Under the pieces are notes generated by a model. It worked only from the letters and a program-made list of their open reading frames with translations, did not search any database and was not told the origin of the DNA. A program made the translations under genes and the position numbers. 12,193 nt of DNA from Candidatus Aenigmatarchaeota archaeon. GTDB lineage: Archaea > Aenigmatarchaeota > Aenigmatarchaeia > Aenigmatarchaeales > JACQIB01. Where the stretch lies: positions 4,295-16,487 of the forward strand of contig JAWABM010000005.1 of assembly GCA_038999215.1 (NCBI GenBank). Direction: 5' to 3'. Each line of letters opens with the position of its first letter. Within the stretch, counting starts at the first letter, position 1. Of the stretch, positions 7,356 through 12,193 are shown in pieces.

Positions 7356-7469
7356 GGCTGGGATGGTGTAGCCTGGCAACATGCGGGCCTGTGGGGCACT
7401 TTTTGTGCAATCCACGAAAAGGCGCGCAGAAAGCCTAAGTCCCGGGTTCAAATCCCGGTCCCGGCCCCA
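7356..7469 (+). tRNA. tRNA-His(GTG) with encoded G-1, encoded CCA and a 37/38 intron
   Basis: G7356 is G-1 opposite C73 (7466). Acceptor GCTGGGA/TCCCGGC, anticodon GTG at 7391-7393, T arm CCGGG-TTCAAAT-CCCGG, CCA at 7467-7469. Confidence 0.93.
7395..7431 (+). other. 37-nt tRNA intron at position 37/38 with bulge-helix-bulge motif
   Basis: CUGU (32-35) pairs with intron GCAG (7426-7429). The 3-nt bulges are GG^G and AA^A. The outer intron helix includes TTTT/AAAA. Confidence 0.88.
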
Positions 7470-11729: not shown

Positions 11730-11866
11730 ATTCCGGTTGATCCTGCCGGAGATCACCGCTATCGGATTCCGACTTAACCATGCGAGGCGAGAGGTGCAAG
11801 ACCTCGCCGTACTGCTGAGTAACACGTGGTTAACCTGCCCTTGGGTGGGGAATAATCTCGCGAAAG
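11730..11866 (+). rRNA. rrs: Archaeal 16S rRNA, 5' exon
   Basis: ATTCCGGTTGATCCTGCCGGA...CCATGC...AGTAACACGTGG..AACCTGCCC..GGGAATAATCTCGCGAAAG. Similarity to 16S stops at the helix-8 GAAA loop; the boundary is uncertain by a few nt. Confidence 0.95.
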
Positions 11867-11878
11867 ACAAACCGTACC

Positions 11879-11913
11879 TTTATATGTAATCTCATGTAGC
11901 TTGAGATTATATG
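11879..11913 (+). promoter_or_regulatory. Candidate internal TATA box and start-codon-sequestering hairpin
   Basis: TTTATA at 11879-11884. TATGTAATCTCA (11883-11894) pairs with TGAGATTATATG (11902-11913), which includes the ATG. Confidence 0.6.
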
Positions 11914-12193
11914 AAACCTGAATACTTGGCTGGATTTTTCGATGGTGAAGGGTCTTTGATTTTCAGACTTAGAAAAGACCCCAGATACAAAAATGGATAC
12001 CAAATAAAACCGCATTTGGACATCACGCAAAAAGATCCAGAGGTGCTAAAAATAATACAAAAAGAATTTGGTATGGGCAAACTCTATAAAAATAAGGATG
12101 GGACATTTCATCTGTGCGTATACAAGACTGATGACATTGTCAAATTCTTGAAAATTATAGAGAAACACAGTGTAGTGAAGAAAGTTAACATTA
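11911..12193 (+). CDS. LAGLIDADG homing endonuclease, I-CreI-like (3'-truncated by the window; not in the ORF track)
   Basis: Translated by hand: MKPEYLAGFFDGEGSLIFRLRKDPRYKNGYQIKPHLDITQKDPEVLKIIQKEFGMGKLYKNKDGTFHLCVYKTDDIVKFLKIIEKHSVVKKVNI. Shows the YLAGFFDGEG motif, ITQK, and G.G. Confidence 0.95.
   Translation, partial: MKPEYLAGFFDGEGSLIFRLRKDPRYKNGYQIKPHLDITQKDPEVLKIIQKEFGMGKLYKNKDGTFHLCVYKTDDIVKFLKIIEKHSVVKKVNI

What the first reader, a model, noticed from the sequence alone, without database searches (positions are those of the whole stretch)
11851..12193. Homing-endonuclease intron inserted at the helix-8 tetraloop near the 5' end of an archaeal 16S rRNA
Seen: 16S sequence runs to ...GGAATAATCTCGC-GAAA-G, then is replaced by AT-rich DNA encoding a LAGLIDADG protein (YLAGFFDGEG, ITQK). 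Known: this loop corresponds to about E. coli 159-163. The archaeal 16S intron sites I recall (mainly Thermoproteales) all lie further downstream, from about 374 onward. Inference: this may be a rare or undescribed insertion site. The apparent exon does not end in U, as group I introns require, so a BHB-type intron spliced by the tRNA endonuclease is more likely; the same genome has a BHB tRNA intron. The intronless helix-8 DNA would be a pseudo-palindrome, a suitable target for a single-motif homodimeric enzyme.
Basis: partly seen in the sequence, partly recalled or inferred. Interest (0 to 1): 0.85.

Follow-up and report, generated by a model that had tools for sequence, protein, structure and literature searches.

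The report
Mobile intron in 16S helix 8

Summary
The window's 16S gene breaks off in the GAAA loop of helix 8 (E. coli 159-162) and resumes 419 nt later in the same contig. The window ends at a 10-N scaffold gap inside the insert.

The insert encodes a small single-motif LAGLIDADG endonuclease of about 132 aa. Its ends form the core of an archaeal bulge-helix-bulge (BHB) intron: a 4-bp helix between exon and intron 3' end, two 3-nt A-rich bulges, and a long intron stem. No group I or II core is detectable.

I found 19 distinct insertions at exactly this site:
- 16 species genomes, titled Aenigmatarchaeota, Bathyarchaeia or "Thermoproteales"
- 3 metagenome contigs

They run from 29 to 452 nt. 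Eight carry the endonuclease gene, one carries a remnant, and the rest are mini-introns. The central helix is kept through compensatory changes in 19 of 19.

The motif is relaxed on the exon side. Splicing in this organism is inferred, not shown.

The site is absent from the 13 published Thermoproteales loci, and 8 literature searches found no record of it. Earlier reports of this scan describe similar 16S introns at other, known sites. Verdict: a real, new member of a known kind, of moderate interest.

The parts
11730..11864 (+). 16S rRNA exon 1 (Rfam model position 1 to the second A of the helix-8 GAAA loop, E. coli ~161). The exact boundary is ambiguous within 11858-11866.
   Evidence: cmscan; E. 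coli alignment. The 8-nt repeat CGCGAAAG stands at both junctions ('both = 8').
11859..11862 (+). 5' strand of the central 4-bp helix H (CGCG, exon). It pairs with the last four intron nucleotides before the 3' bulge (CGCG, L002 2049-2052, outside the window).
   Evidence: H fully paired in 19 of 19 same-site introns, with five sequence types.
11863..11865 (+). 5' three-nucleotide bulge (AAA). The predicted cut AA|A makes 11865 the first intron base.
   Evidence: The position of the cut follows the canonical BHB rule (recalled) and was not measured.
11866..11876 (+). 5' arm of the intron-closing stem h'. It pairs with L002 2038-2048, outside the window.
   Evidence: Cofold; 11 consecutive pairs. 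Own versus cross-locus pairing 7.26 versus 3.87 of 8.
11883..11913 (+). Predicted 12-bp hairpin whose 3' arm contains the endonuclease start codon.
   Evidence: MFE fold, (L002 1654-1684). Conservation in relatives not tested.
11911..12192 (+). N-terminal 94 codons of the LAGLIDADG homing endonuclease gene. The gene continues beyond the scaffold gap (L002 1977-2072) and ends at a TAG inside exon 2.
   Evidence: Alignment with four full-length homologues: about 6 residues hidden by the gap, total about 132 aa.

Best explanation
This is a protein-spliced archaeal (bulge-helix-bulge) intron carrying a homing endonuclease gene, inserted in the GAAA tetraloop of helix 8 of the only 16S rRNA gene found in this assembly of an Aenigmatarchaeota-type genome.

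Proposed mechanism:
1. In the pre-rRNA the two intron ends pair (stem h').
2. The four nucleotides at the intron's 3' end pair with the exon's CGCG. That stretch is otherwise the top of helix 8 plus the first loop G. The result is a 4-bp helix flanked by two AAA bulges.
3. The splicing endonuclease cuts in both bulges (predicted AA|A). Two adjacent EndA paralogue genes encode it.
4. RtcB joins the exons, which refold into helix 8 with its GAAA loop, and probably circularises the intron.
5. The intron-encoded ~132-aa single-motif LAGLIDADG protein acts as a homodimer. It cuts the pseudo-palindromic intronless helix-8 DNA of other cells or copies, and repair copies the intron in (homing).
6. Once every copy is occupied the endonuclease gene decays, leaving the 29-257-nt ORF-less introns seen at the same site in relatives.

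Shown from sequence: position, protein family, conserved and co-varying BHB core, presence of the enzymes, and the size series. Inferred: splicing itself, the exact cut sites, endonuclease activity, and homing.
For: - Full 16S with a single 420-nt insertion in the helix-8 loop. Only one SSU match in the genome.
- LAGLIDADG_1 E = 4.6e-13.
- The four closest endonuclease homologues in 371 class genomes (37-49% identity, 130-140 aa) all sit at the same 16S position.
- In the metagenome scan, 3 of 80 kept loci lie in archaeal 16S. They are the 3 best protein matches and lie at the same site.
- A 3'-junction pattern scan of one genome per species gave 16 stretches. Fourteen are archaeal 16S genes with an insert at this site; 2 are bacterial chance hits.
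- Across the 19 distinct inserts, H is 4 of 4 paired in 19 of 19. The types are CGGG/CCCG x14, UGCG/CGCA x2, CGCG/CGCG, UGGG/CCCA and CGGG/CUCG.
- Bulges are AAA/AAA x16, AAA/ACA x2 and AAU/AAA x1.
- h' pairs 7.26 of 8 on average, against 3.87 for arms swapped between loci.
- No group I or II match at E <= 1 in four complete introns, or at E <= 10 in this one. Inserts of 29-35 nt cannot be ribozymes.
- Two EndA paralogues, each with N- and C-terminal domains, and RtcB are present.
- Relatives without the insert read ...AUCUUGC GAAA GUGAGGCU..., the predicted ligated form.
- One RNA contig of a peat metatranscriptome (298 nt, 10 mismatches) joins 1629|2049 exactly.
- The homodimer model of the G335 homologue scored 0.66 against a best control of 0.10. 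The mark was reached by 20 of 30 proteins solved as pairs of one chain and 1 of 23 solved as single chains. Runs agree in at least 96% of contacts, pLDDT at least 87, interface on the LAGLIDADG helix. I-CreI dimers are solved, so this pass may come from memory.
Against: - The motif is not a strict hBHBh'. After the 3' bulge, three more nucleotides (GUG or CUG) stay unpaired before the 3-bp remnant of helix 8.
- Predicted MFE structures show H formed in only 6 of 16 loci. The other 10 prefer the mature helix 8 with a 4x7 internal loop. For this genome the two forms are -38.2 and about -37.5 kcal/mol.
- There is no RNA from this organism. The joined RNA contig is about 97% identical and could come from an intronless relative.
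- The only DNA run holding near-identical sequence covers the gene's start but not the intron.
- The endonuclease gene is interrupted by the 10-N gap, so its intactness here is unknown.
- 14 of the 19 loci were found with a pattern that fixed CCCG, so covariation in H rests on the 5 loci found otherwise.
- My parsing expression allowed only some letters in H, under which about 3 in 8 combinations pair by chance.
Confidence: 0.8

Rival explanations
1. An intervening sequence or expansion that is not spliced. Either it is kept in the mature 16S, or it is cut out at the long stem without ligation, leaving a fragmented 16S as with bacterial RNase III-processed IVS.
For: The long terminal stem h' resembles IVS stems. 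The strict BHB outer helix is missing, and 10 of 16 MFE folds prefer the mature helix 8. No RNA evidence from this organism.
Against: The 4-bp helix and the two 3-nt bulges are kept in 19 of 19 inserts through compensatory changes. An IVS stem does not require that. The genome encodes EndA and RtcB. An RNA contig with the exact ligated junction exists in a close relative. From recalled ribosome literature, the helix-8 tetraloop makes a tertiary contact, so a retained 420-nt insert is unlikely to be tolerated.
Confidence: 0.1
2. A self-splicing group I (or group II) intron carrying a LAGLIDADG gene, as found elsewhere in DPANN rRNA genes.
For: Group I introns with LAGLIDADG genes do occur in archaeal rRNA genes, including one Aenigmarchaeota LSU (Nawrocki et al. 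2018, PMC6125680, passages and Table 1 read). Several relatives of this genome have an insert near the 3' end of 16S (reference position 1427). That insert may be the published SSU/1498 group I site.
Against: No Rfam intron family matches at E <= 1 in four complete same-site introns or at E <= 10 here. The ORF fills all but about 50 nt of the intron and runs past its 3' end. Within the 8-nt ambiguity, an exon ending in U forces an intron ending in C, not G. Homologous inserts of 29-35 nt at the same site keep the same junction structure.
Confidence: 0.03
3. Assembly artefact: a chimeric scaffold joined across the 10-N gap, or a 16S pseudogene.
For: There is a scaffold gap inside the intron, directly after the window end. 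No public run covers the intron.
Against: The two sides of the gap pair with each other over 11 consecutive bp at the intron ends. The two ORF pieces align to adjoining parts of the homologues, with about 6 residues missing. The same architecture occurs in 18 other assemblies. The exons score 1379.9 bits as a complete SSU rRNA.
Confidence: 0.02

Closest known systems
BHB introns with LAGLIDADG genes in the 16S rRNA genes of Thermoproteales/Desulfurococcales (Jay & Inskeep 2015, PMC4496867; 13 loci: 374, 548, 722, 781, 803, 901, 908, 919, 978, 1093, 1205, 1213, 1391)
   Same: Same kind of element. It lies in 16S, has a BHB core at the junctions, and carries one- or two-motif LAGLIDADG genes. 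Full-length, remnant and small (<50 nt) hairpin versions share one locus.
   Different: The site, E. coli ~161 in the helix-8 loop, is more than 200 nt upstream of the first listed locus. It lies in a region that paper describes as free of introns (V regions). The hosts here are mainly Aenigmatarchaeota. The motif is relaxed on the exon side. The endonuclease is small (about 130-140 aa) and its ORF ends in exon 2.
I-CreI / I-MsoI and the archaeal 'rRNA intron-encoded endonuclease' of PDB 3e54 (single-motif LAGLIDADG homodimers)
   Same: Sequence matches of the G335 homologue: I-MsoI 1.2e-13, I-CreI 1e-09, 3e54 4e-09. One LAGLIDADG motif, a predicted dimer through the motif helix, and a pseudo-palindromic rRNA-gene target.
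   Different: Only distantly related by sequence, with E-values of 1e-09 to 1e-13, and shorter (about 132 aa, against chains of 152-169 aa). Activity and target are untested. I-CreI and I-MsoI sit in group I introns (recalled).
Group I introns in archaeal rRNA genes (Nawrocki, Jones & Eddy 2018, PMC6125680)
   Same: rRNA-gene introns in DPANN lineages, many with LAGLIDADG genes. [quoted passage not shown]
   Different: Those are ribozymes. The only SSU site listed there is 1498. No ribozyme core is detectable here.
Insertion sequences in CPR bacterial 16S/23S rRNA genes (Tsurumaki et al. 2024, PMC11270868)
   Same: Many inserts per gene in small-genome organisms, with site-specific LAGLIDADG subfamilies. 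In this order, too, 16S genes carry inserts at many positions.
   Different: The hosts are bacterial, and the inserts are group I, group II or unclassified. Their site list is in a supplementary figure that I did not see.

Membership tests
Archaeal BHB (splicing-endonuclease-dependent) intron | Two 3-nt bulges on opposite strands, separated by a 4-bp helix | tested here: met
   H is 4 of 4 paired in 19 of 19 same-site inserts. Bulges are AAA/AAA x16, AAA/ACA x2 and AAU/AAA x1. In one locus (L055) the 5' bulge may be 4 nt.
Archaeal BHB (splicing-endonuclease-dependent) intron | Flanking helices directly adjoining both bulges (strict hBHBh') | tested here: not met
   The intron-side helix h' adjoins the 5' bulge (6-13 bp). 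On the exon side, 3 further unpaired nucleotides separate the 3' bulge from the 3-bp remnant of helix 8. This is a relaxed motif of the HBh' type; that naming is recalled from Marck & Grosjean.
Archaeal BHB (splicing-endonuclease-dependent) intron | Host encodes the splicing endonuclease and an RNA ligase | tested here: met
   Two adjacent EndA paralogues (162 and 179 aa), each with PF02778 and PF01974. RtcB 573.5 bits. A two-subunit enzyme with broad specificity is an inference from recalled literature.
Archaeal BHB (splicing-endonuclease-dependent) intron | Exons ligated and intron released (often as a circle) in RNA | tested here: inconclusive
   One RNA contig (~97% identical) with the exact joint, from another habitat. 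It could come from an intronless gene. No RNA of this organism was available.
Group I intron | Conserved catalytic core (P3-P9), detectable by covariance models | tested here: not met
   No Rfam intron family at E <= 1 (four complete introns) or E <= 10 (this intron).
Group I intron | 5' exon ends in U and intron ends in G | tested here: not met
   Within the 8-nt boundary ambiguity, the only U-ending exon gives an intron ending in C.
LAGLIDADG homing endonuclease, single-motif homodimeric type | LAGLIDADG domain with the acidic residue at the end of the motif | tested here: met
   PF00961 E = 4.6e-13. The motif reads YLAGFFDGEG, and its D-G-E-G is invariant in the alignment.
LAGLIDADG homing endonuclease, single-motif homodimeric type | One domain per chain, intact reading frame | tested here: inconclusive
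   Homologues are 130-140 aa with one domain. In this genome about 6 codons lie in the scaffold gap. One homologue (G069) lacks an ATG/GTG/TTG start near the motif.
LAGLIDADG homing endonuclease, single-motif homodimeric type | Forms a homodimer | tested here: met
   Model only. Score 0.66 against a best control of 0.10; the mark was reached by 20 of 30 solved same-chain pairs and 1 of 23 single chains; at least 96% contact agreement, pLDDT at least 87. A like complex (I-CreI) is solved, so the pass may reflect likeness.
LAGLIDADG homing endonuclease, single-motif homodimeric type | Cleaves the intronless target DNA | not testable with these tools
   The predicted target is a pseudo-palindrome: 6 of 9 outside the central four. 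1.5% of 22-mers in this 16S reach that.

The most novel reading that the evidence does not exclude
The helix-8 element may be a single intron lineage that has moved between phyla: Aenigmatarchaeota (DPANN symbionts), Bathyarchaeia and Thermoproteales-like archaea. If so, shared same-site introns would mark physical contact between symbiont and host.

The endonuclease gene also never has a stop codon of its own. In 8 of 8 genes the last 8-9 codons are spelled by the 3' arm of h', helix H, the 3' bulge and exon 2. The protein with its conserved exon-encoded tail can therefore be made only from unspliced pre-rRNA, so its expression would compete with splicing.
Probability: 0.15. Interest if true: 0.55.

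Novelty: new member of a known kind. Interest (0 to 1): 0.35.

Why it matters
- It adds a locus in the 5' domain (E. coli ~161, helix-8 GNRA loop) to the map of archaeal rRNA intron sites. Published 16S loci start at 374.
- The site has its own dedicated endonuclease subfamily.
- One site shows a full decay series, from 452 nt to 29 nt.

Practical consequences:
- 16S genes of these lineages grow by up to 450 nt inside the V1-V2 amplicon region. They tend to break assemblies, as the scaffold gap here shows.
- Annotation pipelines may truncate the gene, as the window's weak 51-bit match shows.
- The ~132-aa homodimeric enzyme is a compact candidate meganuclease with a defined 22-bp target.

None of this changes how such introns are thought to work.

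Tried and rejected
- **Group I or II ribozyme:** rejected.
- **Laying public runs on the locus:** the best DNA holder covers only the upstream region and the gene's first bases at near identity. It gives no cover of the intron, so it tests neither the junctions nor the gap. A hot-spring RNA run from the same study as that holder laid nothing.
- **Endonuclease remnants in the ORF-less introns:** clear only in G014 (1.2e-11) and doubtful in L058 (0.023). Nothing at E below 0.25 in the two Bathyarchaeia-titled loci, the Thermoproteales-titled locus or the other short ones. Transfer between phyla is therefore not shown.
- **First attempt at the metagenome scan:** alignment A1 failed because it had no conserved stretch. 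It was repeated with A2.
- **ARAGORN:** it did not report the 110-nt tRNA match of Rfam at window 7357-7466.
- **Literature:** 8 full-text searches gave no paper describing an archaeal 16S intron in helix 8 or near position 160. Subscription journals are not in the library, notably the CRW intron catalogue of Jackson et al. 2002 and the DPANN paper cited as reference 33 by Nawrocki et al. Supplementary Fig. S1 of PMC11270868 was not seen.

Full report
**What is there**

The window (contig C5 4295-16487 of a 571-kb, 24-contig, 88%-complete genome) holds the start of a 16S rRNA gene at 11730. Rfam's archaeal SSU model matches it only weakly there (51.1 bits, model 1-317).

In the parent contig the gene is complete: model 1-1478 at 1379.9 bits, and the only SSU match in the genome. 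The alignment shows a single large insertion of 420 nt in the loop of helix 8. After it the gene resumes as ...GUGAGGCUAAUGCCCCAUAG. The window ends exactly at a run of ten N (L002 1965-1974), a scaffold gap inside the insert.

An 8-nt repeat, CGCGAAAG, stands at both junctions (L002 1630-1637 and 2049-2056). The boundaries are therefore ambiguous by 8 nt and the insert is 419 nt as assembled. Alignment to E. coli rrsH places UCUCGC at 153-158, GAAA at 159-162 and GUGAGG at 163-168. My script dropped one base of exon 2, which shifts only the 3' side by one.

**The protein**

The ORF from 11911 (94 codons to the window end) matches Pfam LAGLIDADG_1 at E = 4.6e-13. Beyond the gap another frame reads MNLFQNKKHLTPAGFERIKRLWFVRESEANAP and stops at a TAG inside exon 2.

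Four full-length homologues (130-140 aa) were found in other genomes of the same class. Aligned with them, the two pieces abut with about six residues missing. The gap is therefore about 15 nt and the protein about 132 aa, with a single LAGLIDADG motif.

A homologue matches these chains by sequence:
- halves of I-OnuI-type enzymes
- I-MsoI (1.2e-13)
- I-CreI (1e-09)
- an archaeal "rRNA intron-encoded endonuclease", 3e54 (4e-09)

A two-copy model of the G335 homologue scored 0.66 against a best control of 0.10. The mark was reached by 20 of 30 proteins solved as pairs of one chain and by 1 of 23 solved as single chains. Runs agree in at least 96% of contacts and pLDDT is at least 87. The interface lies on residues 6-15, the motif helix. 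Dimers of I-CreI are solved, so this shows likeness more than it proves binding.

The predicted intronless target is symmetric at 6 of 9 positions outside the central four. That level is reached by 1.5% of all 22-mers in this 16S.

**The junction structure**

Cofolding the two ends shows 11 consecutive pairs between the intron's first and last bases (GACAAACCGUA with its complement), followed by further paired stretches.

Next to this stem the 5' strand reads CGCG-AAA and the 3' strand reads CGCG-AAA. The two CGCG can pair. That gives a 4-bp helix (H) flanked by two 3-nt bulges on opposite strands, which is the core of the bulge-helix-bulge motif cut by the archaeal splicing endonuclease.

By the canonical rule (cut after the second bulge nucleotide; recalled), exon 1 ends ...CGCGAA and exon 2 starts AGUGAGG. 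This restores UCUCGC-GAAA-GUGAGG.

The outer, exon-exon helix does not adjoin the 3' bulge. Three more nucleotides (GUG) stay unpaired before the remaining UCU/AGG pairs. The motif is therefore relaxed, not strict.

The alternative fold has the mature helix 8 with a 4x7 internal loop. It is about equally stable: -38.2 against about -37.5 kcal/mol.

**Relatives**

The 16S genes of this order are full of inserts at many positions. At the helix-8 site I found:
- a ~254-nt insert with a decayed endonuclease remnant in another family of the order (G014)
- a 29-nt hairpin insert in a genome of the same family (G004)

Thirteen other 16S genes of the order parsed there have an uninterrupted helix 8. 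Several of them read AUCUUGC-GAAA-GUGAGGCU.

A search of 371 genomes of the class with the 94-aa fragment gave 14 genomes at E <= 1e-6. The four best (37-49% identity) all lie in 16S at the same position. The weaker hits, other than G014's, showed no similarity to the 16S reference.

A pattern for the 3' junction was scanned over one genome per prokaryotic species and matched 16 stretches:
- 14 are archaeal 16S genes with an insert at this site
- 2 are bacterial chance hits without 16S similarity

Five of the 14 repeat loci I already had. Record titles name Aenigm(at)archaeota, Bathyarchaeota/Bathyarchaeia (two), and "uncultured Thermoproteales" (one). The others are titled only "archaeon" or "uncultured archaeon".

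A profile scan of metagenome contigs with the endonuclease alignment kept 80 loci. Only the three best matches (37-50% identity, full length) lie in archaeal 16S, again at this site.

In all there are 19 distinct inserts of 29, 34, 34, 35, 77, 94, 123, 139, 178, 254, 257, 419, 424, 431, 438, 439, 440, 443 and 452 nt. The eight longest carry the endonuclease gene.

**Covariation**

H is fully paired in 19 of 19. There are five sequence types: CGGG/CCCG (14), UGCG/CGCA (2), CGCG/CGCG (this genome), UGGG/CCCA (1) and CGGG/CUCG (1). When the exon changes, the intron's 3' end changes with it.

Two caveats apply:
- The 14 CGGG/CCCG cases were found with a pattern that fixed CCCG.
- My parsing expression allowed only some letters in H. 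The five independently found loci carry the weight here, at roughly 0.375 chance each.

The intron stem h' has no conserved sequence, yet it pairs 7.26 of its first 8 positions on average. Arms swapped between loci pair 3.87 of 8. In MFE predictions H is formed in 6 of 16 loci, and the mature helix 8 is preferred in 10 of 16.

**Other intron types**

No group I or II family matches at E <= 1 in four complete introns, or at E <= 10 in this one. The ORF leaves about 50 nt of non-coding intron. The 29-35-nt versions cannot be ribozymes.

**The machinery**

The genome has two adjacent, overlapping EndA paralogue genes (162 and 179 aa). Each has the N-terminal and catalytic domains, and their best solved relatives are splicing endonucleases. 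This fits a two-subunit enzyme. From recalled literature, that type tolerates relaxed motifs. RtcB is present.

**RNA evidence**

No RNA of this organism was available. One 298-nt contig of a peat metatranscriptome, with 10 mismatches, joins positions 1629 and 2049 exactly. The predicted ligated form therefore exists as RNA in a close relative, but that relative may simply lack the intron.

**Comparison and novelty**

This is the well-known kind of element described for Thermoproteales and Desulfurococcales. Jay & Inskeep 2015 (passages read) list 13 loci from 374 to 1391 and state that V regions are free of introns. Nawrocki et al. 2018 (passages and table read) list only SSU/1498 for archaeal group I introns in 16S.

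Eight full-text searches found no description of a helix-8 site. Several relevant sources are outside the library or were not seen. Earlier reports of this scan describe comparable 16S introns at known sites in other genomes and judged them ordinary. They also name this genome's lineage as Aenigmatarchaeota, which agrees with the record titles of same-class relatives.

I rate this a new member of a known kind. It has a new locus, its own compact endonuclease subfamily and a clear decay series, but no new mechanism.

Noticed in passing
L002 2038-2075 and the homologous ends in L034-L037, L061-L063: None of the 8 endonuclease genes has a stop codon inside the intron. The frame runs through the 3' arm of h', helix H, the 3' bulge and into exon 2. 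In 7 of 8 it stops at the conserved ..CAUAG/CAUAA, and in 1 of 8 at the UGA of CUGAGG. The last conserved residue (W) is encoded in the stem arm. An excised intron would lack that stop.
   Followed up: partly
window 11883-11913: Predicted 12-bp hairpin whose 3' arm contains the endonuclease AUG. A similar UGAGAUUA string lies near the start of the G335 and G069 genes, at different distances. Possibly a translational control or a leftover.
   Followed up: no
L002 2582-2629 (downstream of the window): A second insert of 48 nt, at Rfam model position ~668 (E. coli ~722 by my estimate). Its 3' end (GCCAC-AAA) can pair with the exon's GUGGC. It is probably a mini BHB intron at the published locus 722.
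   Followed up: no
L003-L026 (16S genes of the same order): 16S genes of this order carry inserts at about 17 different positions of a 1465-nt intronless reference: ~136, 240, 383-455, 510, 630, 658, 677, 716-735, 828-855, 885, 912, 931, 1001, 1143, 1301, 1427. Some genes are stretched to 3-4 kb. The common ~1427 site may be the SSU/1498 group I site of Nawrocki et al..
   Followed up: partly
G000:C9 (L027 779-1267 and 1264-1803): Two tandem EndA paralogues overlap by 4 nt. By eye, the first keeps a Lys in ..LAKNIR.. but lacks the His seen in the second (..EHTKW..). The second has His where the first has that Lys. The catalytic triad may be split or altered between the subunits.
   Followed up: no
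window 7357-7466: An Rfam tRNA match of 110 nt to a 71-position model (39.1 bits) implies an insert of about 38 nt. ARAGORN did not call it.
   Followed up: no
L035 1474-1896 (G069): This same-site endonuclease ORF has no ATG, GTG or TTG within 15 codons upstream of the LAGLIDADG motif. Either it uses an unusual start or it is an early stage of decay.
   Followed up: no
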